Part shown: piece by piece, positions 548 through 23,000 of the stretch
Layout: every line of letters begins with the position of its first letter
Numbering within the stretch: position 1 is the first letter of the stretch
DNA from: Methylorubrum extorquens
GTDB taxonomy: Bacteria > Pseudomonadota > Alphaproteobacteria > Rhizobiales > Beijerinckiaceae
Direction of reading: 5' to 3'
Length of the DNA: 32,000 bases
NCBI GenBank assembly: GCA_900234795.1
Contig: LT962688.1
Coordinates: 1,710,001 to 1,742,000 of the forward strand
The notes under the pieces: generated by a model
What the model was told of the DNA's origin: nothing
The model's input: the letters and a program-made list of their open reading frames with translations, nothing else
The model's database searches: none
Position numbers and translations under genes: made by a program

Positions 548-1732
548 TTAGTGCACGGTTGGCCTTTGCTCCACGGGTCGCTTGGCCGGCGGAGCCGGTG
601 GGGTGAGCGCAGCCGGCCAAGCGGTGAACGCGGGTAAGAAGACCTCTGGCGCGGGCGGCCGATAGCCGAGTGCGCCATGCGGGCGGACGGTGTTGTAGTG
701 CCGCTGCCAGCTCTCGATCAGGATCTGCGCCTCCCGCAAGCTATAGAAGATCTCTCCGTCCAGCAGTTCGTCGCGTAGCCGTGCGTTGAAGCTTTCGACG
801 AAGCCATTTTCCCAGGGCGATCCTGGCGCGATGTAGGCCGTCTTCGCGCCCACCCCCATGATCCAAGCCTGCACGCTCTTGGCCACGAACTCAGGGCCAT
901 TGTCCGAGCGAACATGCTCGGGCACGCCGCGCAGTATGAACAGGTCGGACAAGACGTCGATCACGTCGACTGCCTTGAGCTTGCGTGCGACCCGGATCGC
1001 CAAGCACTCGCGGGTGAACTCGTCAATCACGTTGAGCATGCGCACCTTCCGGCCATCGTGGGTGCGCGCTTCGACGAAGTCGTAGGACCAGACGTGGTCG
1101 CGCCGCTCAGGCCGCAGCCGCAAGCAGGAGCCGTCGTTGTCCCAGAGGCGCCCGCGCTTGGGTTGGCGGGTCGGCACCTTCAGCCCTTCACGCCGCCAAA
1201 TCCGCTCGACGCGCTTGTCGTTGACGAACCAGCCGGCGGCCTTCAGCAGCGCGCAGATCTTGCGGTAACCGTAGCGGCCATACCGCTCGGCCAACGCGAC
1301 GAGGTCGGCGGTGAGCGCGGCCTCATCCTCCCGGCCCCGCGGCACCTTGCGCTGCGTCGAGCGATGCTGACCGAGCGCCCGGCAGGTGCGCCGCTCGGAG
1401 ACGTTCATCGTCAGCATGATGTGCTCGACACAGGCGCGTCGGCGCGCGGGGCTCAGAAGTTTCCCCCGTGCCGCCTCCTGCAGGATGAGCTTGTCGAGCG
1501 TCAGGTCTGCAATCGCCTTCCTGAGCCGCTGGTTCTCCGTCTCCAGGTCCTTCATGCGCCGGACCTGATCGGTCTTCAGCCCGCCGAACTCACGACGCCA
1601 GCGGTAGTAGGTAACCTCGCTCACGCCGATCGCCCGGATTGCCTCCGCCACGCTCGTACCTTGACCGATCAGCACGTCGGCTTGGCGCAGCTTCGCGACA
1701 ATCTCCTCAGGCTTGGGTCGCTTCCTCGACAT
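548..1732 (-). CDS. IS3-family transposase (HTH plus rve/DDE), read as one fused ORF
   Basis: ATG at 1732 preceded by AGGAGGA. N-terminal HTH region (EIVAKLRQADVL...VTYYRWRREFGG) with a leucine-zipper-like stretch. DDE-type motifs: HVWSYDF, VRSDNGPEF, PWENGFVESFN. Confidence 0.9.
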   Translation of the reverse strand: MSRKRPKPEEIVAKLRQADVLIGQGTSVAEAIRAIGVSEVTYYRWRREFGGLKTDQVRRMKDLETENQRLRKAIADLTLDKLILQEAARGKLLSPARRRACVEHIMLTMNVSERRTCRALGQHRSTQRKVPRGREDEAALTADLVALAERYGRYGYRKICALLKAAGWFVNDKRVERIWRREGLKVPTRQPKRGRLWDNDGSCLRLRPERRDHVWSYDFVEARTHDGRKVRMLNVIDEFTRECLAIRVARKLKAVDVIDVLSDLFILRGVPEHVRSDNGPEFVAKSVQAWIMGVGAKTAYIAPGSPWENGFVESFNARLRDELLDGEIFYSLREAQILIESWQRHYNTVRPHGALGYRPPAPEVFLPAFTAWPAALTPPAPPAKRPVEQRPTVH

Positions 1733-1770
1733 CGATCCGTCCTCCTGGCTCGAAAGCCATACTAAAGGGC

Positions 1771-1795
1771 GGACCACTCCGCTGGGGGCGGATCA
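1771..1795. repeat. IS right terminal inverted repeat
   Basis: GGACCACTCCGCTGGGGGCGGATCA. Confidence 0.8.
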
Positions 1796-4907: not shown

Positions 4908-7900
4908 GTGATGAGCACAAGTCTCCTCGCCCCACATAAATTTCGTCATCGAGTCTCAATGACCCTCGTCGTCACTGCGAACATCGCCGGGCAGACCCGC
5001 GGCGAGCCCGTGCGGCTGCCTGATCGGCGCCGCCGCCGGCTCTCCACGATCATCGCGCGCCACAAGCCGCCGGCCGGCCGCCGCTTCATCGTTTCGGTGC
5101 ACCGGAAGGGCGAAACCTTCCTGCGGCCGACGGATGGCTCTGTGCGCCTGCGCGCGAGGTGGTCCCGCACGCTGGTCGGGCCCGACGACGTGGTGCTCAT
5201 GACGGAGGTTCCGCTCGGCCGCGGCATCGCCTCCATTGGCCTCGCCATCGCGTCGATTGCGCTGATCGCCGTGGCGCCTTACGCCGCGCCGGCCCTTGCC
5301 GGGGTGCTGGGCGGTGCGGTCTCGGTCGGCGCCGTGCAGGCTGGCCTCGTCATCGGTGGCGTGGCGCTTGGCTACGCCGCGCAGGCCTCGGCTGCGGCGA
5401 AGAAGAAGACCGAGCGCAGCCTGTTCAGCGTCACCGGCGGCGGCAACGTGCCGAAGCCCGGCGCGCGCAAGCCGCTGCTCTACGGCCGGTGCTGGTCCAC
5501 CCCGCCGCTCAGCCAAAAGGACTTCATCACCTACGACGGCGACACGATGGTGCTCACCAAGCGCATGACGCTTGGCATCGGCCGGTTTCAGATCCACGCC
5601 GTGCATGTTGGCGAGGCGGTGTTCTGGACCGAGGGCGGTGGCATCCAGGCGCCCTTCACCTCGACCGATGGCACGTTCGGGACGCAGATCGAGTTCCTGT
5701 ACGGCCAGCCCTCGGCCATCGCGCCGGGCGACGTAATCTCGTCGCCGTCCGTCGGCGGGCAGGAGATGCCGCGGCCGAACGGCAATCCCGAATGGACGCC
5801 GTGGTTCCGGCTGACCCCGCAGGGTGTCACGGCCGACGCCGCGCAGATGTCGTGGACCTATCCGGCGATCTACCGGGTGTCGTCGCAGGGCCGGCAGGCG
5901 CCGACCGTGGCCGGTGTCATCTTCCAGGCGCGCGAGATCAACCCGAACACGGGAGAGGTGATCGGGCCGGAGTTCGTGCTGCACAACTCCAGCGAGGGCG
6001 TGACCGCGCTGACCACCACGCCGCTGCGCCGCTCGGCCTACGTTCGGCTGCCGAAGAACGGCGCCTTTCAGGTGCGGGCACAGAATGCATGGCCCGAGGC
6101 GGTCGGGTTCGAGCAGAAGAACGCCGCCTCGTGGGACGAGATGGCAGCGATCAAGGACGATGTCCGGGTCCGCCCGAACACCACCGAGATCGTCATGCGG
6201 GTGCGGGCCGGGAAGGGCCTGACCGTCACCGCCTTCTCCGAGATCTGGGTCGACGCCACCCGCATCTTGTCGGTGTGGAACGGCTCGGCCTGGGTCGAGC
6301 AGGCAGAGCGCAAGGCGGTTTGGGCCTTCGCCGACCTCGTGCGGTCGCAGCACGGCCTCGCCCTGCCGAACGGCTTCGACGCGGACAAGGCCATCTACTA
6401 CCACCACCTGCTCGACGCGAACGACACCTTCGATGGTGCGCTGCCCGAGGTGTCATCGTTCTGGGAAGCGGCGTCCGAGGTGCTGTTGCCGCTGCGCGCT
6501 GACCCGGTGAAGGTCGGGCCTGTCCACTCCTTCGTCCGCGACGAGAGCCGCGGCGAGCCGCGCCACATCCTCTCTCGCCGGCAGATCGTCCGCGACAGCG
6601 GGGGCGCGACCTTCAAGACGAAGGTCGAGGGCGGCGACGTCATCGTCGAGTTCGACCGCGACGGCGACCCGCGCCGGCCGGATGAGGTGCGGTTCCACTA
6701 CGGCCCGGCCACCCGTACGCCGAAGCGCTACCGGGTGAACGGCATCCGCGACGGCCTGCACGCGCTGAAGCACGCGACGTGGCTAGCGGCGGTGGCCGTG
6801 TTCCGCGGCGCCGAGCGGCGCATCACCACCGAATGGGACGGGCGCCTCGTCTTCCCCGGCGATCACGTCCTGTCGGATCTCTGGTATCTGAAGGGAAAGC
6901 GGACCTTCGGTGTCGCTTCTGCGGCCGGCAACATGCTGACGCTGGACGTCACCGCCAATGTGCCGGCCGAGTGGGGCTACGGCTCCATCCGGACCCGCGA
7001 AGGTCGGGAATGGGGCATCCTGCGGATGCGCGGCGTCGGCGCCCGCGGCCTGGAACTGCGTCCCGAGGACGTGACGGCGCTCGAGGCTCGGGTCCATCAG
7101 ACGCCGAACGGCCCGATCCGCCTCCGGCTGGCCGATGTGCTGGCCCGCGACACGCAGGGCCCAACCACCATCGTCATCGGCGACCTCGTCGAACTGCAGG
7201 AGACCTACGTCGCTCGCTCGGCCGTCCCGAGCGATGCCGACCACGTCCAGATCGAGATGGTGGCCGACGACGCGCGCGTCTGGCAGCTGCTCGACGAGCA
7301 GGTCATCGCGCCGGCCCCGGTCAACGCCGACGGCCTCGCTGAACCGCTGATCCCGCAGATCTCAGTACTGCACGCCCGGTGTGAGCGGATCGAGACCGGC
7401 ATCGAAGTCGTGTGGGGCGTGTCCGTCACCCGCGGCGCCCGCAACTACGAGGCCGACATCTCCTACGATTCCGGAGGCACCTGGGAGCCCTTGTCGCCCT
7501 ATGGCCCGGCTTCGAGCGGCCGGGCGCAGATGCGGCAGTCCGATAAGCCGGTGACGGTCCGCGCACGCGCCTTCGGGCGCACCGGCCTGCCGGGCGACTA
7601 TGTGGACACCACGTTCACGACGGTTGCGCCGATCGTCCAGGGCAGCCTTGTCGACGTCTCAACGATCCCGCCCATCCCCTACGAGAAGCTTGGTCAGGAC
7701 GCGCAGGAAAGGATCGTCGCAGCCCAAGCCGCGGCCGATGCGGCGCAGGAAGCCGCCGACGCCGCGAGCCAAGAAGCGGCCAGCGCCCTCGCCAGCGCCT
7801 ATGGCCGTCTCGACGACCTGCGCCGTGCGCTCGCTGCGGACCCGTCCGTGCGGATCGGGTTCGTCGATGCCGTCATGGGCAACGTCCGCAAGGACATCTC

Positions 7901-10013
7901 GCTCCTGACCGAGGCGACCTTCCGCCTGCTCTCCGACGTGGCGACCCTGCGCGACAATCAGGCGGCGGCCGGTATCGAGATCCTGCCGGATGAAGGGCGC
8001 GTTCGCATCGCTGCTGTGGCGAAGTTGGAGGCGGAAACCGGCGAGCGCCTGACCTCTCTCGCGGTGACGGTGAACTCGCTCAAGGGGCAGATCGAGCTCT
8101 ACGGATCGGTCCAGGGCAAGGACGTGTCCGGCCTCGTCACCGACATCAACGCCGTCCGTGTTCGCCTCGATGCAGTGGCCGCGACGGTCTCGACGCTGGC
8201 GACCTCGGCGCAGTTCGACGCACTCGGCGCCCGCGTCGGCACCGCCGAGCAGACCATTACCGCACAGGGCGCGGCGATCGAGCAGCGTGCCACGCTCGCG
8301 ACGGTGGACGCACAGGGCGCTCTCCTCACCACGGCGATGACGCGGATTTCAGCCGCCGAGGGCAGCATCCGTAACGTCGTCACCGCCGCCGGCACGAGCG
8401 CCGTCGATCTGCCGCTGATGGTCGGAACGCTGGCGCAGATGCTCGAATACCTCGGCGAGCAAACCGGGGGGCTGTACGAGCACGTCGCTCGCGCCGAGAC
8501 AGCTACCTCCGCCAACTTCGACGAGGCGGGCCGGGCCGTCGCCGAGGTGTCCACGCGCTTGCTCGCTTTCCAGGGCGACACGGCGGCACAGTTCGTCGAT
8601 GTCACGCGGGCGATCGCCGGCAACGGCGAGGCTCTTGTGCAGAGCCAGACGTTGCTTTCGGCGCAGATCGGCAAGGTCGCAGCCGACGTCACGTCGGAGA
8701 TCCAGGTGCGGGCCGCGGCCGACGCGGCGCAGACGACCCGCATCGCCGGGGCGGTGTCACGGATCGGGACCGCGGAGGCGCGGCTCGTTACGGAGGAGCA
8801 GACGCGCGCCAGCGAGACCAGCGCTCTTTCGAGCCGCCTGACCAGCGTCACGAGCCGGGTTGGTTCGTCCGAGGCCGCGATCACCACCCTCGGTCAAGCG
8901 ATCACGGACAACTTCAGCAGCGCCGCCTCGCAGTTTCAGGGCATATCCGTGCGCTTTGATAATGTGGAGGGCAAGGTCGCCTCGTCTGAGGCGAACATCC
9001 AGACCCTGTTCACGTCGTACGCTGCAGGAGATGCCGCCAACGCGCAGGCGATCAACGTCCTGCGAGCGGACGTCAACACGCACGTTGGCAACCTGAACGC
9101 CTTCAACGTCGAGACGCGGCAGGTGATCGTCAACGGCGACAGCGCGCAGGCCACCCGCACCGACCAACTTGTCGCCCAAACCAACGGGGATCGCGCCTAC
9201 TTCCTGTCGGAGAACAGCGCCCGATTCAATCAAACCGAGGGGGTTGCACGTGCGCTGAATGCCCTGGTCGTGCAGACCAACTCGGATCGCGGTTATTTCC
9301 TGAACGAGCAAACCGCACGGATCAATCAGGATGGCGTCTTCGCTGGTCAGATCCAAGACGTCTTCGCCCGCACCGATGCAGGCACGGCCGCGGGCCGGAT
9401 CAAGTTCGAGGCGGTCTCGGCCCCGGCGGGCGTCGCGGTCAGGTTCTCGATCCAGCTTTCGACGGAGCGGAACGGCTTCCACCGCAACTCCGGCCTGTTC
9501 ATGGACATCTTGGGCGATGGTTCGTCCCGAATCCTGTTCGATGCAAACCTGATCGCGTTCACCGCCAACGGAGGCACGACCTACCCGTTCCGCTTTACCG
9601 GTGCGGAAACCTATATCGACACACTTCGACTTGGGCCGGGCAACTTCCTGCCGAACAGTATCTCGCAGTCAAACAGCGGATACGATCCTAATGCGAGTTC
9701 CATCCAGTTCGGCATCACAACGCGCCCTGGATCAGCCGTGGTGATTTTCGCTGAGTTCTATGGCGAGCCGCAATCTGTACGCCCGCTCGGCTCCGAAGGT
9801 GTCTTGCGCATCGCTCGGGACGGCACTCCGCTGCGCGACAAGGGCGTGGCCTACTACGTTACTCCGACCGGCAGTGTCCCGTCACTGCAAACACTTGCAA
9901 CTGAGTCGAAATACACCGACAGGCCCCCGCCCGGAGATCACGTCTATACAATCAGCGTGACGAATGGCCAGCGGGGCCTAGCGTATACTTACCTTGAAAT
10001 CACCGGCTCCTAA
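4908..10013 (+). CDS. tail-tip host-specificity protein, gpI-like N-terminus fused to a gpJ-like body
   Basis: 1701 aa. The N-terminal ~200 aa have the gpI layout (a small domain, then Gly/Ala-rich hydrophobic segments). A J-like core and an FN3-like segment follow. A long Ala-rich coiled-coil-like region and a distinct C-terminal domain complete it. Confidence 0.9.
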   Translation: MMSTSLLAPHKFRHRVSMTLVVTANIAGQTRGEPVRLPDRRRRRLSTIIARHKPPAGRRFIVSVHRKGETFLRPTDGSVRLRARWSRTLVGPDDVVLMTEVPLGRGIASIGLAIASIALIAVAPYAAPALAGVLGGAVSVGAVQAGLVIGGVALGYAAQASAAAKKKTERSLFSVTGGGNVPKPGARKPLLYGRCWSTPPLSQKDFITYDGDTMVLTKRMTLGIGRFQIHAVHVGEAVFWTEGGGIQAPFTSTDGTFGTQIEFLYGQPSAIAPGDVISSPSVGGQEMPRPNGNPEWTPWFRLTPQGVTADAAQMSWTYPAIYRVSSQGRQAPTVAGVIFQAREINPNTGEVIGPEFVLHNSSEGVTALTTTPLRRSAYVRLPKNGAFQVRAQNAWPEAVGFEQKNAASWDEMAAIKDDVRVRPNTTEIVMRVRAGKGLTVTAFSEIWVDATRILSVWNGSAWVEQAERKAVWAFADLVRSQHGLALPNGFDADKAIYYHHLLDANDTFDGALPEVSSFWEAASEVLLPLRADPVKVGPVHSFVRDESRGEPRHILSRRQIVRDSGGATFKTKVEGGDVIVEFDRDGDPRRPDEVRFHYGPATRTPKRYRVNGIRDGLHALKHATWLAAVAVFRGAERRITTEWDGRLVFPGDHVLSDLWYLKGKRTFGVASAAGNMLTLDVTANVPAEWGYGSIRTREGREWGILRMRGVGARGLELRPEDVTALEARVHQTPNGPIRLRLADVLARDTQGPTTIVIGDLVELQETYVARSAVPSDADHVQIEMVADDARVWQLLDEQVIAPAPVNADGLAEPLIPQISVLHARCERIETGIEVVWGVSVTRGARNYEADISYDSGGTWEPLSPYGPASSGRAQMRQSDKPVTVRARAFGRTGLPGDYVDTTFTTVAPIVQGSLVDVSTIPPIPYEKLGQDAQERIVAAQAAADAAQEAADAASQEAASALASAYGRLDDLRRALAADPSVRIGFVDAVMGNVRKDISLLTEATFRLLSDVATLRDNQAAAGIEILPDEGRVRIAAVAKLEAETGERLTSLAVTVNSLKGQIELYGSVQGKDVSGLVTDINAVRVRLDAVAATVSTLATSAQFDALGARVGTAEQTITAQGAAIEQRATLATVDAQGALLTTAMTRISAAEGSIRNVVTAAGTSAVDLPLMVGTLAQMLEYLGEQTGGLYEHVARAETATSANFDEAGRAVAEVSTRLLAFQGDTAAQFVDVTRAIAGNGEALVQSQTLLSAQIGKVAADVTSEIQVRAAADAAQTTRIAGAVSRIGTAEARLVTEEQTRASETSALSSRLTSVTSRVGSSEAAITTLGQAITDNFSSAASQFQGISVRFDNVEGKVASSEANIQTLFTSYAAGDAANAQAINVLRADVNTHVGNLNAFNVETRQVIVNGDSAQATRTDQLVAQTNGDRAYFLSENSARFNQTEGVARALNALVVQTNSDRGYFLNEQTARINQDGVFAGQIQDVFARTDAGTAAGRIKFEAVSAPAGVAVRFSIQLSTERNGFHRNSGLFMDILGDGSSRILFDANLIAFTANGGTTYPFRFTGAETYIDTLRLGPGNFLPNSISQSNSGYDPNASSIQFGITTRPGSAVVIFAEFYGEPQSVRPLGSEGVLRIARDGTPLRDKGVAYYVTPTGSVPSLQTLATESKYTDRPPPGDHVYTISVTNGQRGLAYTYLEITGS
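9171..9329 (+). repeat. in-frame tandem repeat inside the tip protein (period 96 nt)
   Basis: VAQTNGDRAYFLSENSARFNQ (9171-9233) versus VVQTNSDRGYFLNEQTARINQ (9267-9329). Confidence 0.7.
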
Positions 10014-15242: not shown

Positions 15243-15707
15243 TTGATTAGAAACTCATGTTCGCCTGTCACTTCGGCTGAGCCTGTCGATCTAACGATCA
15301 TGATTGCTTCGACCTATGTACGAAACCATACGTTGGATGCGTCTGATTTGCCTGGCCTTATTCAGGGGACATACTCGGCGCTTGCTGGATTGAGGGCGAA
15401 ACCGGAAGCTCATGCGGCGCCGAAGGTCCAGGGGCCAACGGCTAGACAAGTCCGGCGATCGATTTCGCCCGAGGGATTGATCTCGTTCATCGACGGCGCG
15501 CCGTACATGATGCTGAAGCGGCACCTTCGTCGGCATGGGCTAGATCCCGACAGCTACCGCGCCCGCTATGGCTTGCCGGCAGACTATCCCATGGTAGCGC
15601 CGAGCTACTCGGAGCGCCGGTCGGGAATCGCCCGCTCCTCCGGCCTGCCGCATCGGCGCCGGAAATGGCCGGCGAAGGCCGATGTGGGAACCACATCCGG
15701 AGCCTGA
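15243..15707 (+). CDS. MucR/Ros-family transcriptional regulator lacking the two zinc-binding cysteines
   Basis: The core LKRHLRRHGLDPDSYRARYGLPADYPMVAPSYSERRS aligns with Ros (SLKRHLTTHH...[23 protein letters not shown]). The Cys-x2-Cys positions read S-F-I-D. Start is TTG 15243 or ATG 15300. Confidence 0.8.
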   Translation: MIRNSCSPVTSAEPVDLTIMIASTYVRNHTLDASDLPGLIQGTYSALAGLRAKPEAHAAPKVQGPTARQVRRSISPEGLISFIDGAPYMMLKRHLRRHGLDPDSYRARYGLPADYPMVAPSYSERRSGIARSSGLPHRRRKWPAKADVGTTSGA

Positions 15708-15973
15708 TGCTCGCATTGCCGGAAGGACTTGGCCCCCCACTGCGCTCCACCGTCCCGTCGCCCTGTGCCGACGTCGAACTCTGGCTGAAGGATGCACACG
15801 TCTACCTGGTCATCGGGCCGAGCACGCGCATCAGCCCGGTAGTTACCTACCCCGGTAACCGACCGCACGCCCGCTCCGAGAACACGATCGGGCCGCTGAC
15901 GACGTTCGCGCGGGAAGCACCGGAGGAGGTGGTGCGGGCGCCCTGCGTGGAGCGTGGAGCAAAGGAGAAGTGA
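15707..15973 (+). CDS. small ORF overlapping the MucR stop, paralogous to 18639..18902
   Basis: TGATG stop/start overlap at 15705-15709. The C-terminal 56 codons are conserved with copy 2, with mostly third-position differences. Confidence 0.4.
   Translation: MLALPEGLGPPLRSTVPSPCADVELWLKDAHVYLVIGPSTRISPVVTYPGNRPHARSENTIGPLTTFAREAPEEVVRAPCVERGAKEK
15773..15954 (+). repeat. repeat block, copy 1
   Basis: 15788-15955 aligns without gaps to 18723-18890, with about 31 mismatches in 168 nt. Confidence 0.85.
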
Positions 15974-17373: not shown

Positions 17374-18367
17374 TTAAGACGCTCGGTTCTCCAGCCGCCA
17401 CGCACTCGGCGTCATGCCCGACCAGCGCCGGAAGGCATGCGTGAAAGCGGCCGGCTCGGAGAAGTTCAGGGTGGCCGAGATCTCCGTCAGGCTCATGCAC
17501 GTCTCGGCCAACAGTTGCTTGGCCACCTGGAACTGTGCCTCGCTGGCAAGCTGCTTGAAGGTCGTGCCCTCGGCCCGCAAATGTCGGCTAAAGGTGCGGC
17601 GGTTGACCCGCCACATACGCGCCACGCGATCCGCCGTGCAGAGCTGCTGGGTCATTTGGATCCGGAGGTATCGACGCAGCTCCTCCGTCAAACTGGATGA
17701 CCGTTGGGCCTCAAGTCGGCGGATGCGGCCCTCTACCAGCCGGCGGACAGTCGGGTCTGCACCGGCGATGTGCTGCTCAAGATGGTCGGCCGAGAACACC
17801 AAGGCAGCCGCCTCTTGATCGAACCGGACGGGCGCACGGAAGAAGCGGCCATAGGGAGCGGTGTCGCGTGGCTTGGAGCGCGGCAGCAGAACCTCCTGCA
17901 GCACCCAATCAGCCCCACCTAGCGCCCGAAGGACGTTGGTCATGGTGGCGAGCGCTCGCTCCGAGTGGATGGCCGCGCACTCGGCTTCCGGACCATAGGG
18001 GGGCGTAGCTGAAAACGGCGACGCCGCTGTGGATGCCTAGCCCGACCACCGCGCCCCAGTTCTGCGTGCCTGAGTGCGCGACGAGCGCCCGCAAGGCGTC
18101 GCCGACGCTGTCCGAGTGGCGCATGAGCGCACCGAGACGTCCCAGCGATCCCAGGGTGCCGCGCTGGCCGACGAGGAGCCCAAGATAAGGGCAGTTCGTC
18201 CGCTCAGCCCCGAGGGTGATCAGGCGGGCGAGGTCGGCATAGGGGACGCGCTTGCCGCCGTCGAAGAGTCCGGGATCGAGACCCAACTCGGCAATGAGGC
18301 TCTCCGGATCTGCACCAAGTTCGATAAGGGTGGCGTAAACCGCCGGACCAACCCCAGGACGGCTCAA
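17374..18367 (-). pseudogene. AraC-family regulator, frameshifted
   Basis: ORFs 17909..18367 (N-terminal ligand-domain-like) and 17374..17943 (AraC HTH: TFSRHLRAEG...FSEPAAFTHAFRRWSGMTPSAWR) overlap in different frames. Removing one base of the G6 run at 17998-18003 joins them as ...SYAPYGPEAECAAIHSERALATMTNVLRAL. Confidence 0.8.
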
Positions 18368-18638: not shown

Positions 18639-18902
18639 GTGAATGCCTGCTACCCACCCTCAACGGACGTCGCGGATGGGGCGAAGGTCGGATTCGAACC
18701 GCTGGCAAGCGGGAAGTCGGCCAAGGACGCCCGCGCCTACCTCTACATCGGGCCGAGCACGCGCATCAGTCCGGTGGTTACCGATCCGGGTAACCGGCCG
18801 CACGCTCGATCCGAGATCACCATTGGACCGCTGATGACGTTCGTGCGGGAGACGCCAGAGGCGGTGGTGCGAGTCCCGTGCGTGGAGCGGGACTCGTCGT
18901 AG
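18639..18902 (+). CDS. small ORF paralogous to 15707..15973
   Basis: GTG start. Shares the conserved C-terminal block IGPSTRISPVVT.PGNRPHARSE.TIGPL.TF.RE.PE.VVR.PCVER. Confidence 0.35.
   Translation: MNACYPPSTDVADGAKVGFEPLASGKSAKDARAYLYIGPSTRISPVVTDPGNRPHARSEITIGPLMTFVRETPEAVVRVPCVERDSS
18677..18705 (-). other. tRNA 3'-end-like fragment (T-arm plus acceptor strand)
   Basis: TGGGGCGAAGGTCGGATTCGAACCGCTGG resembles the plus-strand image of the tRNA-Ser 3' end (TGGCGGAAGGGGTGGGATTCGAACCCACGG). No matching 5' half is present. Confidence 0.3.
18688..18896 (+). repeat. repeat block, copy 2, ending in a 9-bp hairpin
   Basis: Aligns with 15773-15954. Hairpin CGAGTCCCG-TGCGTGGAG-CGGGACTCG at 18870-18896. 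Confidence 0.85.
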
Positions 18903-18921
18903 CGTACCTCACCAGCGCACT

Positions 18922-19155
18922 TCACTCCTGCTGGCCTTGCTCCGATCTGGTCTGGCTCAGCGCGATCAGTGCGCCGAACGCGCCAACCGCCGATCCAAGA
19001 ACGCCTGCCAGCGCGACGGCAACGGGAGGGATTGGCGCAAGCTGCTGTGGCCACAGCAGCCAAAGAGCGCCAAGGGCGAAGAGCCCACAGCATACGCCGC
19101 TCAGCAGTGCGATGACGACGCGACGTTTGACGAGAGGTTTGCTCATCCGTCGCAT
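18922..19155 (-). CDS. small two-helix membrane protein
   Basis: Two hydrophobic helices. Coding-like codon usage. No clear SD. Confidence 0.45.
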   Translation of the reverse strand: MRRMSKPLVKRRVVIALLSGVCCGLFALGALWLLWPQQLAPIPPVAVALAGVLGSAVGAFGALIALSQTRSEQGQQE

Positions 19156-19297
19156 CTAGGGCGCGCTGCGATTTAATCGCGTTCTGACCGCCATCGTCGT
19201 CACCTGGCCGGACATCGGTCCCGCGATCTAGCGCAGGCGACCCTGCATCGGGGGCTGGTGGCGGACAGGAGCGCTTCCGTTCGGAGGGAACCCCTGG

Positions 19298-19454
19298 GTG
19301 ATGGGGTGTGCGCCCTGCGTGGAGCGCGGGGCACACCCGCCGGACGGAACGGCGCGACCAGCCGTCTACCTCATGCCCGCCCCCCCCAGCGGGCACTTCC
19401 ATCTCGATACCCGACTTGCCCCGCCCGGCTCAGCCGCGGCGGGGTTTTTCGTTT
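19298..19454 (+). ncRNA. candidate small RNA: three stem-loops ending in an intrinsic terminator
   Basis: SL1 at 19304-19338. SL2 at 19375-19394 (GCCCGC/GCGGGC stem, loop CCCCCCCA). SL3 at 19419-19444 followed by TTTTTCGTTT. The 5' end is unknown. Confidence 0.3.
19419..19454 (+). terminator. rho-independent terminator
   Basis: CCCCGCC...GGCGGGG stem with inner CGG/CCG pairs, followed by TTTTTCGTTT. Confidence 0.6.
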
Positions 19455-19466
19455 CAAACCCCGTGT

Positions 19467-19501
19467 GCCGCCGCGAGCATCCGCTTCCGCACCTCGGCCA
19501 T
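19467..19501. repeat. direct repeat R1 (3' fragment of the small gene family)
   Basis: The 25-bp core GCATCCGCTTCCGCACCTCGGCCAT (19477-19501) is identical to 20752-20776. The full 35 nt matches 21443-21477 at 34/35. Confidence 0.85.
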
Positions 19502-19694
19502 CCAGGCGGCGAGCAGATTGAGCCCAGGAAATGCCTACTGATAGGTAAATTTCGCGCATTGTATGCGCTTCCACGTCTTCATATGGAAACGTCTGCACAT
19601 TTGCGGGTACAGGCCGCAGGTTGATCATTGGCTTACCGTTGAATGGGCCACCGCCTGCCCGCCAACGGCATTGTCACGACTGGTTGGGGCTACT

Positions 19695-20693
19695 GTGAAA
19701 TCGCTGACAATCACCGAAGTGCCTCGGAGTTTGGATTGGCAGGAAGCTATTCGCCGGACCGAGTGTGCCAATGTTTACGCATCCGAAAAGTGGGGAGAAT
19801 ACAAAAGGCGCCTCGGTTGGTTGGTGAAGCGCGTCATTATAAGCGACCAATCGGGGCGAGAGCTTGGATTGGTTCAATATCAAATACGCAAGCGCGGCCC
19901 ATCTCGCTTTATTTTGGCGCAGGGCTGCCCAATTTTAACTGACAAAGGGGCTTTTCAGGCGAAAGAGGTCTTCGAAGCCTTTGTTGCGCACTTGAATCTG
20001 GGACGTCTCGATCTGCTTGGCATTAGATATCATCAATTCGAGACGGGTGAAGCAAAGCTCGCCCTCCTGGCTCATGGATTTCGCCCAGTGATCTCGGCCA
20101 AGGATCACACGCTTGAGGTCAATCTTTTACAGACCATGGAATCGATCCGGTCGGCTTTGGATGGGCGCTGGCGCAACGCACTCGTAAAAGCGGAGCGCAA
20201 TAACAATATAGTGATAAATTTCTCCCAAAGTCCTTCAGATAGATCTCAGGCATTCGACGTGTTTTCCAAGATGTATACTTCTCTCAAAGAGAGAAAGGGG
20301 TTCCAGAATAGCCTCAACACCCAGATATACGGCGACCTGGCAGCGCACGACACTTGCCTCGAATTTCAAGAGGTTCGTGAAAATGGAGAGCCGATCCTTG
20401 TCCGTATAGCTCATAAGTCGCGTCACCGCTGGACTGATTTTTTTGTCGCCTCTAACGAACGTGCTCGAGAGTTGGAGGTGCCAAGGCTTGCGCTGTGGCG
20501 CGCTCTTGAGAAGGCCAAACAGGAGGGGGCTTCGATTTACGATCTTGGCGGTATCGATCCCGCGAACAACCGAGGTGTCTACGTGTTCAAGGCGGGTGTG
20601 ACGCGAAGTGTTGCTCAGGCAACTCCGTTGTGGCTTTACAGCCGGTCTTCTATAGTCCGCGATGCCGCCGCCTCAATCCTTAGCCGTCGCTGA
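19695..20693 (+). CDS. FemAB-family (aminoacyl-tRNA-dependent peptidyltransferase-like / Acetyltransf_6) protein
   Basis: C-terminal motif ALWRALEKAKQEGASIYDLGGIDPANNRGVYVFKAGV is typical of FemAB-like enzymes. Clearly AT-richer than its flanks. Longest ORF starts at 19563; GTG at 19695 fits the family N-terminus better. Confidence 0.7.
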   Translation: MKSLTITEVPRSLDWQEAIRRTECANVYASEKWGEYKRRLGWLVKRVIISDQSGRELGLVQYQIRKRGPSRFILAQGCPILTDKGAFQAKEVFEAFVAHLNLGRLDLLGIRYHQFETGEAKLALLAHGFRPVISAKDHTLEVNLLQTMESIRSALDGRWRNALVKAERNNNIVINFSQSPSDRSQAFDVFSKMYTSLKERKGFQNSLNTQIYGDLAAHDTCLEFQEVRENGEPILVRIAHKSRHRWTDFFVASNERARELEVPRLALWRALEKAKQEGASIYDLGGIDPANNRGVYVFKAGVTRSVAQATPLWLYSRSSIVRDAAASILSRR

Positions 20694-20751
20694 CGGCGCT
20701 CTTGCATGTAGCGGTCATAGGACACGCTCGCGCGACCGAGCCACGGTGCAC

Positions 20752-20776
20752 GCATCCGCTTCCGCACCTCGGCCAT
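20752..20776. repeat. direct repeat R2
   Basis: Identical 25-mer to 19477-19501. Confidence 0.85.
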
Positions 20777-20877
20777 GCGTTCGTCTCGGTTGGTCTCGCA
20801 TGGCGGCGTAATCCGAGCTGTGGGGATCTCCGTCCTCTCGACGTTCGCCGGGGCCGGACACTCGCTGCTCGTCTGGC

Positions 20878-21285
20878 TCAGGCGCCCCGATCCTGCTCCA
20901 TGCGAGCGGCGCTGCGAACAAGGGCCAGAACCTCGCGACGTAGCTGGTCATCCTCAATTGTGATGAAGGCGTTCAGCAGGTCGATGGCGCCCGGGGCACG
21001 CAAAAAATCGAACACCTCTGTCTTTTCCAGCGCGGCGGTGCCGCCCCCATCGTCAAAAAAGACGGAGACCGGCGCTCCAAGTACCCCAGCGATGTCGCTC
21101 AGGCGACCGGCGCCGACGCGGTTCGTGCCGTTCTCATATTTCTGGATCTGCTGGAACGTCACGCCGATCGCGATGCCGAGCGCAGTTTGTGAGATGCCCC
21201 TGGACTTGCGCAGCGCCTGAATGCGCAGGCCGACCATAGCGTCGTGCTTGGTTGCCTGCTTCGGCGATCCACTATGGTCGTCCAT
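20878..21285 (-). CDS. XRE-family helix-turn-helix regulator
   Basis: HTH_3 motif LRIQALRKSRGISQTALGIAIGVTFQQIQKYENGTNRV. ATG at 21285; longest ORF extends to 21360. Confidence 0.8.
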   Translation of the reverse strand: MDDHSGSPKQATKHDAMVGLRIQALRKSRGISQTALGIAIGVTFQQIQKYENGTNRVGAGRLSDIAGVLGAPVSVFFDDGGGTAALEKTEVFDFLRAPGAIDLLNAFITIEDDQLRREVLALVRSAARMEQDRGA

Positions 21286-21435
21286 GGGTTCGGGCCCTTG
21301 ATGCCAGAGCGGCACAGCAGGATTGTCGACGTAGCAGTCTGCACGTGGGGCAACTCTCACGGAAGAGATTTCATTGCGACCATCAGTGATGCCTCATCCC
21401 TCGAGCCTGCCGGTCATGTTCAGCCATGGCCTATG

Positions 21436-21624
21436 TCAACTCGCCGCCGCGAGCATCCGCCTCCGCACCTCGGCCATGCGGGTGTCATCGCTGGCGCCTG
21501 TCACCATGGCCTCACGCCCGACGGCCTCGTAGATCTCTCGCACGGTCGCCTCGTCCAGGCCGAGGCCCTGCGCGAACCGGAGCAGGCCGCGCAGCTCGGC
21601 GGCGGTTTGGTCGTCGTTGGTCAT
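21436..21624 (-). CDS. hypothetical 62-aa acidic protein (module A, gene 2)
   Basis: ATGA overlap with the upstream gene. The C-terminus is the source of repeats R1-R3. Confidence 0.55.
   Translation of the reverse strand: MTNDDQTAAELRGLLRFAQGLGLDEATVREIYEAVGREAMVTGASDDTRMAEVRRRMLAAAS
21443..21477. repeat. direct repeat R3 (inside the intact small gene)
   Basis: One mismatch to R1 and to R2. Encodes MAEVRRRMLAAA on the minus strand. Confidence 0.85.
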
Positions 21625-21842
21625 TGCTGGTCCTGGCCTCCTGCCGCGAACCGCAGGGCCAGAAACGCAGCGCCGTCCTCTTGATCGTGATGCCGCCCCA
21701 CGAGTTGGCCATCGGCATCCTCAAGAACCCAGAGGCCCGGGTGCTCGGCATCCTCGGACACGTGGCCCGCCACGTCCTCGCCAACCTTTACGATGAACTC
21801 GCCGTTGGCGCTCTCTTCGATGGTGTAGTCCAAGGGGAACAT
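21621..21842 (-). CDS. hypothetical 73-aa acidic protein (module A, gene 1)
   Basis: GGAAGG lies 4 nt upstream of the ATG at 21842. Paralogue of 22465..22659. Confidence 0.55.
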   Translation of the reverse strand: MFPLDYTIEESANGEFIVKVGEDVAGHVSEDAEHPGLWVLEDADGQLVGRHHDQEDGAAFLALRFAAGGQDQQ

Positions 21843-22294
21843 CAAGCCTTCCGCGCCCGAACGACGAACTCCCAGATCGGCATGCCAACTGGGGTGCCTG
21901 GAACGCCGCGATAGCCGATCAGGTTGCAGAATGAGATCCGGTCCGCCTCGACGCCGATCGCCTCGCATCTGCTGACCCTACCAAGCCCATCCGGTACCCG
22001 ACGCGCGGGGTTTTTCGTTTTTGGGCTACCGCACCGCGATCTCGCGCTCGCCGACGACGATCTTCGCCGGCTCAGTCGGGTGACGCTCGGTGATGCGCTT
22101 GATCCCGTAGGGCCTCAGCTTGTCCCAAGCCGCATCGCTTCCCGTCATGAGCGCGCGGGCCAGAAGGTCGGCCAGATCCTTGCCACTGGTGCTGATGCCA
22201 CGGCCCCGCAGATGTCGGGGTGCTCGTACTCGATTGAGGCAATCCGAAATGCGGATTTATGCAAGTCGGCGCACAGGCTATCGTTTTAGGCACG

Positions 22295-22378
22295 GGGGCG
22301 GTGCCCGAGTGGCAAAGGGGGCGGACCGTAAATCCGCTGGCAATGCCTACGTAGGTTCGAGTCCTACCCCCCCCACCA
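22295..22378 (+). tRNA. tRNA-Tyr(GUA), type II, with atypical C33 and a C5-C68 mismatch
   Basis: Hand-folded. Acceptor GGGGCGG/CCCCCCC. D-loop carries GG. Anticodon arm GCGGA-CCGTAAA-TCCGC. 13-nt variable arm. T-arm GTAGG-TTCGAGT-CCTAC. A73 and CCA are encoded. Confidence 0.75.
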
Positions 22379-22464
22379 TTCTTTGCGCTCGTCTGGTAAA
22401 AAAATGCGGGTGAAGCAGGCGCCGTTGGGTGCCCACTAGTTGGCGACGGTGCGGTCGGGCATGC

Positions 22465-22659
22465 TCACGCCTCATCCCCGGCGATGAACCAAGCTGCAAG
22501 GAACGTCGCTGCCTTCTCCGGCTGATACACACGGCCCATGAACCGGCGCTTCTGATCCTCTGCGATCCACAAACCAGGCCGCACAGGATCTTGGGTCACG
22601 TATCCCGCTAGGTCTCCATCGACCCTCACGACGAAGCGATCCTCTCCGTCGGGCTCCAT
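22465..22659 (-). CDS. hypothetical small acidic protein (module B, paralogue of 21621..21842)
   Basis: FVVRVDGDLAGYVTQDPVRPGLWIAED...AATFLAAWFIAG aligns with FIVKVGEDVAGHVSEDAEHPGLWVLED...GAAFLALRFAAG. Confidence 0.5.
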   Translation of the reverse strand: MEPDGEDRFVVRVDGDLAGYVTQDPVRPGLWIAEDQKRRFMGRVYQPEKAATFLAAWFIAGDEA

Positions 22660-22733
22660 TGTGTGGCCAGGCGACTGCATGCCGGCATGTTAGCGCGGCT
22701 GTGTGGCGGCTCCACGACTGGCGTCTTTGCGGT

Positions 22734-23000
22734 TCACTCCTTCTGCGCCCGCGCCAGCAGGATCGCGGTGCGCGCGGCGGAGCGCCTAGCGCCAGTCGAG
22801 CTCGTCTTGTCGCGCAGGACAGCGGTGGCGAAGGCGTTTGCCTTCACGGCGGCTGCCACGTCGAGCGTGTAGCCCTCGGCGAGTTCCTCCCGCACATTCA
22901 TCCGGCCGGCGAGAACGGCATCGACCAGCGCGTTCAGATCGTCATGGGTGACGACGTTGGCCTTGAAGAGTTCGCGGACGGTGGGGTTGGCGTCCGCCAT
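22734..23000 (-). CDS. hypothetical 88-aa protein
   Basis: High-GC3 ORF between the two tRNA genes. Weak SD. Confidence 0.45.
   Translation of the reverse strand: MADANPTVRELFKANVVTHDDLNALVDAVLAGRMNVREELAEGYTLDVAAAVKANAFATAVLRDKTSSTGARRSAARTAILLARAQKE

What the first reader, a model, noticed from the sequence alone, without database searches (positions are those of the whole stretch)
19467..21477. The AT-richer FemAB gene and the XRE gene are each bracketed by direct repeats that are 3' fragments of a neighbouring small gene
Seen: GCATCCGCTTCCGCACCTCGGCCAT occurs identically at 19477-19501 (R1) and 20752-20776 (R2), and with one mismatch at 21453-21477 (R3). R1 and R3 match over 35 nt (34/35). 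On the minus strand all three encode MAEVR(K/R)RM.... Only R3 belongs to a complete ORF (21436..21624). R1 is preceded by an in-frame TAG about 10 codons upstream. R2 sits in a degenerate frame. The R1-R2 interval is the visibly AT-richer FemAB-family gene, and the R2-R3 interval holds the XRE regulator. Inference: cassettes were inserted one after another into the 3' end of the 62-aa gene. Each insertion regenerated the gene end and displaced the older copy leftwards, as with tandem integrative elements. The alternative is recombination among paralogues. No recombinase is visible.
Basis: partly seen in the sequence, partly recalled or inferred. Interest (0 to 1): 0.65.

Follow-up and report, generated by a model that had tools for sequence, protein, structure and literature searches.

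The report
Gene-end relics flanking prophage cargo genes
In a Methylorubrum prophage, two accessory genes are separated by short leftover copies of the end of a small multi-copy phage gene, and related strains show these leftovers are where gene modules are swapped, gained or lost, which is a clear but fairly ordinary case of phage genome mosaicism.

Summary
The repeats are real. The 25-mer sits at 19477-19501, 20752-20776 and, with one mismatch, at 21453-21477; none is expected by chance. All three are the 3' end of a 62-aa gene (p62). p62 is a three-helix protein found only in Methylorubrum/Methylobacterium prophage-like regions, with several paralogues per genome.

Related loci show every state:
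- p62 directly followed by a terminator (T);
- T-R-XRE-p62 (M. extorquens DM4, with one hybrid R exactly where the window has R1-FemAB-R2);
- T-R-FemAB-R-XRE (window and two others);
- FemAB-R-p62 without XRE.

The FemAB and XRE sides of R2 have incongruent histories, so recombination has occurred within R.

The integrative-element reading is poorly supported. No integrase lies nearby. Relic lengths vary from R+0 to about 45 codons. The FemAB-proximal copy does not restore the gene end. p62 next to XRE often carries a divergent R. Only XRE and FemAB are R-bracketed.

Best reading: module accretion and shuffling by recombination between paralogous prophage copies, with the conserved p62-end/terminator block serving as linker. 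This resembles PeSL-mediated shuffling in T4-type phages. It is a new member of a known kind, of moderate interest. The unusually strong conservation of the non-coding relics is unexplained.

The parts
19418..19457 (+). T: GC-rich hairpin (CCCCGCCCGGCTCAGCCGCGGCGGGG) followed by TTTTTCGTTTC. It is an intrinsic-terminator-like element at the convergent junction between the rightward prophage late genes and the leftward small-gene operon. In intact family members the p62 stop codon (TGA) lies in its tail.
   Evidence: Fold -40.6 kcal/mol, z -2.7. 39/40 identical to L022 while sequence to its left is 32% identical. Found next to R in 19 distinct contexts. The simple terminator scan did not flag it.
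19467..19501 (-). R1: relic of the last ~15 codons of a p62 paralogue (MAEVRKRMLAAAHGV*), 22 nt from T.
   Evidence: 34/35 identical to L022 although the adjacent flank is 60% identical.
19502..20751 (+). FemAB segment: 193-nt 5' flank, 332-aa Acetyltransf_6/FemAB-family gene (19695-20693) and 58-nt 3' flank. Absent from M. extorquens DM4, which has a single hybrid R at this position.
   Evidence: Pfam. 332-aa homologues at 73-94% identity in Methylorubrum p62 arrays. GC 52%. DM4 empty site L009 10800-10824.
20752..20785 (-). R2: p62 relic (25-mer plus 9 nt, codons ~47-57). It lacks the gene tail on its left, where the FemAB 3' flank begins.
   Evidence: The same R+9/XRE-flank joint occurs in L009, L014, L022, L038 and L056.
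20878..21360 (-). XRE-family (HTH_3) regulator gene. The likely start is the ATG at 21286-21288 (~136 aa, as in homologues of 134-135 aa).
   Evidence: Pfam and NCBIfam. The p62-XRE arrangement is conserved in DM4, L014, L017, L022, L050, L051 and L056.
21436..21624 (-). p62: intact 62-aa gene whose 3' end contains R3 (21453-21477). Predicted three-helix bundle; R encodes the core of helix 3.
   Evidence: 114 homologues, all Methylorubrum/Methylobacterium. Alignment A1. AlphaFold pLDDT 95. No structural or family match. Homology to DM4 (91.5%) starts exactly at 21444.
21621..21842 (-). p73: small gene translationally coupled to p62 (ATGA overlap). Paralogue of p71 (22465-22680).
22029..22200 (-). 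x22: small conserved gene that precedes p73/p62 in most loci. A second T-like motif (22007-22020) follows its stop.
22295..22378 (+). tRNA-Tyr, lying between the two small-gene modules.
22465..23000 (-). Second small-gene module: p88 (22734-23000) and p71 (22465-22680). These are paralogues of genes that accompany p62 in other loci.
18639..18902 (+). p87: small rightward gene that normally precedes T in related loci. Paralogue of p102 (15665-15973).

Best explanation
The window carries the accessory-gene end of a Methylorubrum prophage. In its simplest form a rightward late operon and a leftward operon of small genes (x22-p73-p62) converge on one terminator, T. The p62 stop codon lies in the tail of T.

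p62 is multi-copy: several prophage-like regions per genome each carry a paralogue, and its 3' end plus T is highly conserved. Recombination between these paralogous copies has stacked modules at this junction. Such recombination could be general or phage-recombinase-driven homologous exchange across short conserved stretches, combined with occasional illegitimate joints. Each stacking event left a truncated 3' piece of a resident p62.

R1 is the oldest, terminator-proximal relic. R2 is the relic that always travels with the XRE module. R3 is the end of the live gene.

Because the 25-35-nt R block is shared by all copies, it now acts as a linker. Crossovers within it delete, insert or swap the FemAB module and re-pair it with different XRE modules.

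Shown: the repeats, their identity as p62 ends, the empty and filled alleles, and the incongruent histories on the two sides of R2.
Inferred: the recombination pathway, the direction of each event, and the terminator function of T.
For: (1) All R copies in 57 distinct contexts are p62 ends or truncated p62 ends. Most lie next to T.
(2) p62 has 114 homologues restricted to Methylorubrum/Methylobacterium. Seven distinct clusters share one 5,670,096-bp contig length, which implies many paralogues per genome. Loci lie in predicted prophages and next to phage lysis and tail genes.
(3) All states exist:
- T-R(p62): L020, L013, L015.
- T-R-XRE-p62: DM4 L009/L010, L038, L056; L014 has the same R-XRE-p62 joint but no T beside the relic.
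- T-R-FemAB-R-XRE: window, L022, L027.
- FemAB-R-p62 fragment: L025/L026.
- Tandem XRE units with p62 pieces: L005/L053.

(4) DM4's single R has the window's R1 left flank and R2 right flank.
(5) Incongruence across R2. L027's FemAB is 94% identical to the window's. Its XRE side is 93% identical to FemAB-less L050 and 94% to DM4, but 80% to the window. The window and L022, both FemAB+, are only 78% identical in XRE, while DM4 (FemAB-) and L022 are 87% identical.
(6) Window-DM4 homology of 91.5% begins exactly at the left edge of the R3 block.
(7) Relic lengths vary widely, as expected for illegitimate joints or decay rather than one att crossover.
(8) The same filled/empty topology and mechanism is documented for PeSL motifs in T4-type phages (PMC2839356). 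Phage Rad52-like recombinases are shown to recombine short, diverged homologies between prophages (PMC3945230).
Against: 25-35 nt is short for RecA-type recombination, and no phage recombinase gene was identified in the window.

The non-coding relics are much better conserved than neighbouring non-coding DNA: R1+tail 34/35 against 60% for the flank, with a variable 9-nt spacer between R and T. This hints at a sequence-specific function or site that this model does not require.

The FemAB segment is bounded by an exact duplication of the target, which is the classical signature of Campbell-type integration.

Many comparison loci were ascertained by an exact match to R. This inflates the apparent invariance of R and hides relics shorter than R.
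Confidence: 0.6

Rival explanations
1. Site-specific tandem accretion. R is the core of an att-like site at the 3' end of p62. FemAB and XRE are small non-autonomous integrative cassettes, inserted and excised as circles by an integrase supplied in trans, for example the prophage's own.
For: An exact 25-nt direct repeat bounds the 1250-nt FemAB segment, and DM4 has a precise empty site with one hybrid R. A second empty/filled pair exists in a different XRE context: L050 vs L027. R relics are conserved far above their flanks. All copies are in the same orientation within arrays.
Against: No tyrosine or serine recombinase is present in the window. None is present within 6-10 kb of p62 or its FemAB-array neighbour in L008, L009, L022 or L025. 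R has no dyad symmetry and no significant fold. Relic breakpoints are variable. The gene end is not regenerated at the FemAB joint. Only two gene families are R-bracketed, and other cargo at the same junction lacks relics. The flanking R copies are non-identical in several loci: 2-4 mismatches against 0.
Confidence: 0.13
2. The T-R block is itself a functional regulatory cassette, such as a bidirectional terminator or an RNA-processing or protein-binding site. Each module needs it and carries it along. The repeats then persist through selection for that function, and recombination at them is a by-product. This is the closest analogue of PeSLs.
For: T folds as a strong terminator hairpin. On the minus strand the last p62 codons pair with an arm of T. 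T and R are each conserved while the spacer between them varies. Relics are conserved without coding capacity.
Against: R2 and R3 in the window have no adjacent T. The 25-mer itself does not take part in a significant predicted structure. No promoter-like site was found. Conservation may be an ascertainment or survivorship effect.
Confidence: 0.17
3. Purely local history: one in-situ tandem duplication of p62 followed by decay, with FemAB and XRE simply lying between decayed copies and no ongoing exchange.
For: L017, L040, L021 and L005 keep long p62 fragments (codons 18-61) or diverged full-length copies next to XRE. This is consistent with decay of once-complete tandem genes.
Against: Phylogenetic incongruence across R2 and the empty/filled alleles in two contexts require repeated exchange. 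Relics are too well conserved for old decaying pseudogene pieces.
Confidence: 0.05

Closest known systems
PeSL (promoter-early stem-loop) mediated modular shuffling in T4-type phages (Arbiol et al. 2010, PMC2839356; Comeau et al. 2014, PMC4122927)
   Same: A short conserved motif is repeated at the borders of accessory genes in a hyperplastic region. One phage has the gene flanked by two motifs and its relative has a single chimeric motif. The proposed mechanism is homologous recombination between motifs, giving deletion, mini-circles and re-insertion.
   Different: The host here is a temperate alphaproteobacterial prophage. The repeated unit is the coding 3' end of a small gene (25-45 nt), with a terminator beside only some copies; it is not a ~100-bp promoter+terminator cassette. 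No promoter was detected. Mini-circles were not tested.
Mosaicism of temperate phages by relaxed homologous recombination between prophages (De Paepe et al. 2014, PMC3945230) and conserved boundary sequences of lambdoid phages (own knowledge: Clark et al. 2001, cited in that paper)
   Same: Exchange occurs between co-resident or related prophages across short, conserved stretches. Segments on either side of a joint have different identities. Small fragments are exchanged more often than whole modules.
   Different: No Rad52-like, RecT or Erf gene was identified in the window. The homology used here (25-35 nt) is at the low end.
Tandem accretion of integrative elements and cis-mobilisable elements at the 3' end of a gene (own knowledge: ICESt1/ICESt3/CIME at fda in Streptococcus thermophilus; tRNA-gene island arrays)
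   Same: Direct repeats that are 3' fragments of one target gene separate successive inserted segments. The intact gene sits at one end of the array.
   Different: There is no integrase and no fixed core or crossover position. The gene end is not regenerated at the FemAB joint. The 'elements' are single genes of 0.7-1.3 kb.
Integron gene-cassette arrays (own knowledge)
   Same: Single-gene cassettes are separated by a recurring short site, and arrays differ between strains by whole cassettes.
   Different: There is no IntI. R is not an imperfect palindrome like attC. FemAB is in opposite orientation with its own 193-nt upstream region. Only two cassette families were seen.
Phage morons / lysogenic-conversion genes at operon ends (own knowledge: Juhala et al. 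2000; Hendrix et al. 2000)
   Same: An AT-richer, independently oriented accessory gene (FemAB-like) is inserted between two phage transcription units, next to a terminator.
   Different: Morons are not usually bracketed by duplicated pieces of a neighbouring gene.

Membership tests
Integrative element / CIME-type tandem accretion | A tyrosine or serine recombinase encoded in or next to the array | tested here: not met
   Pfam/PHROG scans of window ORFs find only an IS3-type transposase 18 kb away. Precomputed Pfam for genes within 6-10 kb of p62 or its FemAB-array neighbour in L008, L009, L022 and L025 lists no integrase or resolvase. An integrase further away in the prophage cannot be excluded.
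Integrative element / CIME-type tandem accretion | Identical core with crossover at a fixed position in every junction | tested here: not met
   The 25-mer is shared. However, p62-like sequence ends at R+0/7, +6, +9, +15, +17, +21, or codon 34, 21 or 18 in different junctions. Flanking R copies differ by 2-4 nt in DM4, L014, L017 and L022.
Integrative element / CIME-type tandem accretion | The insertion restores the 3' end of the target gene | tested here: not met
   R2 reads MAEVRKRMRAPWLG... into the FemAB flank and has no p62 tail. The same holds in L025. The intact p62 (R3) has its own tail.
Integrative element / CIME-type tandem accretion | Excised circular form with one att site | not testable with these tools
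   Needs PCR or long reads from the strain.
Integron | IntI integrase, attI, and attC sites that fold as imperfect hairpins | tested here: not met
   No integrase. Folds of the R regions are not better than shuffles, apart from the adjacent terminator T.
PeSL-like linker-mediated shuffling | Conserved short motif at both borders of variable genes, with a single chimeric motif at the empty site in a relative | tested here: met
   Window R1-FemAB-R2 vs DM4 single R with R1-left and R2-right flanks. L027 vs L050.
PeSL-like linker-mediated shuffling | Different evolutionary histories on the two sides of the motif | tested here: met
   FemAB side W-L027 94%. XRE side W-L027 80%, L027-L050 93%, L027-DM4 94%.
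PeSL-like linker-mediated shuffling | The motif is a promoter plus terminator cassette | tested here: inconclusive
   A terminator-like hairpin adjoins R1 and many other copies but not R2 or R3. No promoter-like site was found.
Transposon / IS / MITE | Terminal inverted repeats and a short (2-15 bp) target duplication | tested here: not met
   No inverted pair at the ends of 19502-20751 appears among the 25 longest in the 14-27 kb region. The duplication is 25-32 nt.
FemAB / Acetyltransf_6 (cargo gene 19695-20693) | Profile match above the curated cut-off | tested here: met
   PF13480 42.9 bits (cut-off 22). PF02388 26.1 bits (cut-off 24). NCBIfam equivalogs are far below cut-off, so no specific enzymatic role is assigned.
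XRE / HTH_3 regulator (20878-21360) | HTH_3 profile match above cut-off | tested here: met
   PF01381 40.8 bits (cut-off 23).

The most novel reading that the evidence does not exclude
R (with its 10-nt tail) is a dedicated recombination site of a so-far unrecognised cassette-exchange system in Methylorubrum prophages. Single-gene modules (FemAB-like, XRE and possibly others) would be excised as mini-circles and re-inserted at the 3' end of p62-family genes by a trans-acting, sequence-specific factor. This would explain why non-coding relics stay invariant while their flanks diverge by 40%.
Probability: 0.12. Interest if true: 0.75.

Novelty: new member of a known kind. Interest (0 to 1): 0.38.

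Why it matters
This locus gives a clean, sequence-resolved example of how temperate phages of plant-associated methylotrophs gain, lose and re-pair accessory genes. A conserved gene-end/terminator block serves as a portable junction, and empty, filled and recombinant alleles are all observable in public genomes.

It makes one question testable: is short-linker shuffling, demonstrated for lytic T4-type phages, also at work in alphaproteobacterial prophages, and which recombination pathway drives it?

It also flags a low-GC FemAB/Acetyltransf_6-type gene as recurrent prophage cargo. Its role is speculative; cell-wall or surface modification affecting phage or lysin sensitivity is one possibility.

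Tried and rejected
- Dispersed-repeat idea. Exact-pattern scans of one genome per species, IMG/VR and JGI metagenomes found only 7, 11 and 19 stretches. All were p62 ends or relics in Methylorubrum/Methylobacterium. Rejected.
- tRNA-derived att sites. Only two intact tRNAs are present (Tyr, Ser). No partial tRNA duplicates are in the window, and the GGTTCGAATCC at ~18690 is an 11-mer chance match. Rejected.
- Rfam. Nothing but the tRNAs.
- Diversity-generating retroelement (repeat at a gene 3' end plus a non-coding copy). No reverse transcriptase, the repeats are too short, and there are no adenine-specific differences. Rejected on inspection.
- Shufflon or invertase. The repeats are direct; only one inverted copy was seen, 7 kb away in L018. 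Rejected.
- A longer frameshifted p62 relic at R1 (REIY..VG motif, tblastn E=0.39). Not significant.
- Family and function of p62, p73, p71 and p88. No Pfam, NCBIfam, PHROG or PADLOC hit. The p62 model is a confident three-helix bundle with no Foldseek match at E<1.
- Defence-system cargo. Only generic HTH hits for XRE in PADLOC.
- Plasmid collection. No relevant match.
- The window's own p62 is not on record as an exact protein.
- Literature searches for Methylobacterium prophage mosaicism found nothing specific.
Full report
**Observation**

The 25-mer GCATCCGCTTCCGCACCTCGGCCAT occurs exactly at 19477-19501 (R1) and 20752-20776 (R2), and with one mismatch at 21453-21477 (R3). There are no further hits at up to three mismatches and none in 100 shuffles. 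A self-BLAST extends R1/R3 to 35 nt (34/35) and R2/R3 to 28 nt.

On the minus strand:
- R3 is the end of an intact 62-aa ORF, p62, at 21436..21624.
- R1 reads MAEVRKRMLAAAHGV* behind an in-frame TAG 12 codons upstream.
- R2 reads ...DERMAEVRKRMRAPWLG..., running into the antisense of the FemAB 3' flank.

The R1-R2 interval holds a 332-aa Acetyltransf_6/FemAB-family gene at 52% GC. The R2-R3 interval holds an HTH_3/XRE gene.

**Setting**

The window is from a Methylorubrum (extorquens group) chromosome. Positions 2-15 kb encode phage structural, tail and lysis proteins interrupted by an IS3-type transposase. The host-like, 70-73% GC opgGH region starts at ~23.3 kb. tRNA-Tyr and tRNA-Ser lie at 22.3 and 23.1 kb. 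The finding therefore sits in the accessory end of a prophage.

p62 has 114 homologues, all in Methylorubrum/Methylobacterium. Up to seven distinct clusters come from what appears to be one genome. Homologous loci lie in IMG/VR prophage predictions, often near their ends, and beside phage lysozyme and large tail-like genes.

p62 is predicted with high confidence to be a three-helix bundle, and R encodes the core of helix 3. It has no family or structural match. It is usually preceded by the small genes x22 and/or p73/p71 and p88.

**The canonical junction**

In many loci the intact p62 is followed directly by T. T is a GC hairpin plus a TTTTTCGTTTC tail, and the p62 stop codon lies in that tail (L020, L013, L015, L039). 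On the other side of T lies a small rightward gene of the p87/p102 family (L001, L016, L022, L039).

T folds as a strong plus-strand intrinsic terminator. On the minus strand the last p62 codons pair with one of its arms. T thus looks like the shared terminator of two convergent operons. That role is inferred, not tested.

**Comparative states**

- M. extorquens DM4 (L009) has p73-p62-XRE followed by a single R and then T. That R has the window's R1 left flank and R2 right flank, so it is a precise empty site for the 1250-nt FemAB segment. L038 and L056 are like DM4; L014 shares the XRE joint but has no T beside its relic.
- L022 (another M. extorquens) and L027 have the window's full T-R-FemAB-R-XRE array.
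- L025/L026 have FemAB-R followed by ~100 nt of p62-like sequence and no XRE.
- L005/L053 have two XRE units in tandem with p62 pieces between them.
- L017, L040 and L021 keep longer p62 fragments (codons 18/21-61) next to XRE.

The 25-mer is not a generic dispersed repeat: every copy recovered is a p62 end or a relic of one.

**Evidence for recombination at R**

The window and L027 are 94% identical in FemAB. To the right of R2, L027 is 93% identical to FemAB-less L050 and 94% to DM4, but only 80% to the window. The window and L022 (both FemAB+) are 78% identical in the XRE region, whereas DM4 (FemAB-) and L022 are 87% identical.

FemAB presence is therefore incongruent with the XRE tree. Empty/filled pairs occur in two different XRE contexts (X1: DM4 vs window/L022; X2: L050 vs L027). 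Window-DM4 homology (91.5%) also begins exactly at the left edge of the R3 block, and the XRE-p62 spacer is unrelated. All three R copies in the window are mosaic boundaries.

**Against a dedicated site-specific system**

- No integrase or resolvase is present in the window or within 6-10 kb of p62 or its FemAB-array neighbour in four other genomes.
- R has no dyad symmetry and no significant fold.
- The point where p62-like sequence stops differs between junctions: R+0/7, +6, +9, +15, +17, +21, codon 34, 21 or 18.
- R2 lacks the gene tail, so the gene end was not regenerated.
- In DM4, L014, L017 and L022 the live p62 next to XRE has an R with 2-4 mismatches and a different tail, whereas the relic beyond XRE is the consensus.
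- Only XRE and FemAB are R-bracketed. Other cargo lies between p62 and T with no relic: a KilA-N-like gene in L001, HTH_3/M78 genes in L008, membrane and receiver proteins in L017.

**Best reading**

Modules led by different p62 paralogues have been stacked at this convergent junction by recombination between related prophage copies, leaving truncated p62 ends. The shared 25-35-nt block then serves as a linker across which modules are deleted, inserted or re-paired.

The topology is the one described for PeSL motifs in T4-type phages: a gene flanked by two motifs in one phage and a single chimeric motif in its relative (PMC2839356). Phage Rad52-like recombinases are known to recombine short, diverged homologies between prophages (PMC3945230). 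The pathway, the direction of individual events and the terminator role of T are inferred.

**What remains odd**

Between the window and L022, T is 39/40 identical and R1 plus its tail is 34/35. Meanwhile the 9-nt spacer between them is 5/9, the FemAB 5' flank 60%, the FemAB coding sequence 77% and the 3' flank 61%. Non-coding relics should not be this stable.

Possible explanations are selection on an unknown function, repeated refreshing by exchange with intact p62-T copies, and survivorship or ascertainment, since many loci were fetched by exact match to R. This leaves about 0.1-0.15 probability for a genuine, sequence-specific cassette-exchange system.

**Cargo**

FemAB-like genes at 73-94% identity occur only in these arrays and keep 51-53% GC. 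The 47-50% identical chromosomal homologues, next to Tad pilus or polysaccharide genes, have 66-69% GC. No defence-system profile matches. A role in envelope modification is speculation.

**Verdict**

This is a new member of a known kind (linker-mediated modular shuffling and moron accretion in phages). Interest is moderate.

Noticed in passing
window 15665-15973 and 18639-18902 (repeat 15788-15954 / 18723-18889): A second pair of direct repeats (167 nt, 82%) is the C-terminal part of two paralogous small rightward genes (p102, p87). In related loci one such gene directly precedes T. Here the two copies bracket ~2.7 kb of cargo, so the same accretion pattern appears on the other side of the junction.
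   Followed up: partly
window 17374-18367 (-): An AraC-family regulator is split into two overlapping ORFs: Arabinose_bd N-part in 17909-18367, and its C-part plus HTH_18 in 17374-17943. It is probably a frameshifted pseudogene within the cargo region.
   Followed up: no
window 18890-19351: A ~460-nt segment with a 77-aa membrane-protein ORF (18922-19155, -) lies between p87 and T. It is absent from L001, where the p87 homologue is 32 nt from the T-containing block, so this is another indel at the hot spot. The segment is present at 97% in metagenome contig L054.
   Followed up: partly
window 19535-19552: A motif CTACTGATAGGTAAA upstream of FemAB is conserved in the window, L022 and L027, although the surrounding flank is only ~60% identical. 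It is a candidate promoter or operator of the FemAB module.
   Followed up: no
window 19695-20693; L057, L062: Prophage-array FemAB-like genes keep 51-53% GC in four loci. Their 47-50%-identical chromosomal homologues have 66-69% GC. Some of those homologues lie next to Tad pilus genes, which also flank the DM4 island.
   Followed up: partly
window 22007-22020 and 21621-23000: A second T-like motif (GGGGTTTTTCGTTT) follows the x22 gene. The small genes p73/p71 are paralogues (40% identity) on either side of tRNA-Tyr, and p88 accompanies p71. tRNA-Tyr therefore sits inside the island-like small-gene region.
   Followed up: partly
window 548-1777 (-) and 2031-2474: An IS3-family transposase (rve, HTH_Tnp_1) sits next to an ORF that matches only the C-terminal part (125-248 of 393) of a virion structural protein profile. 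This suggests the IS has disrupted the prophage, which may be defective.
   Followed up: no
window 15243-15707 (+): A Ros/MucR-family regulator (117 bits) is encoded at the end of the phage late region. A homologue occupies the same relative position in L025.
   Followed up: no
window 4908-10013 (+): A 1701-aa ORF lies in the tail region, presumably a tail fibre or host-specificity protein. It was not analysed.
   Followed up: no
L005 1536-3716 (= L053): Methylobacterium sp. Leaf123 carries an array of two XRE genes (63% and 80% identical to the window's). They are interleaved with three p62 pieces and one diverged full-length p62-like ORF. This is the most extended p62/XRE array seen.
   Followed up: partly
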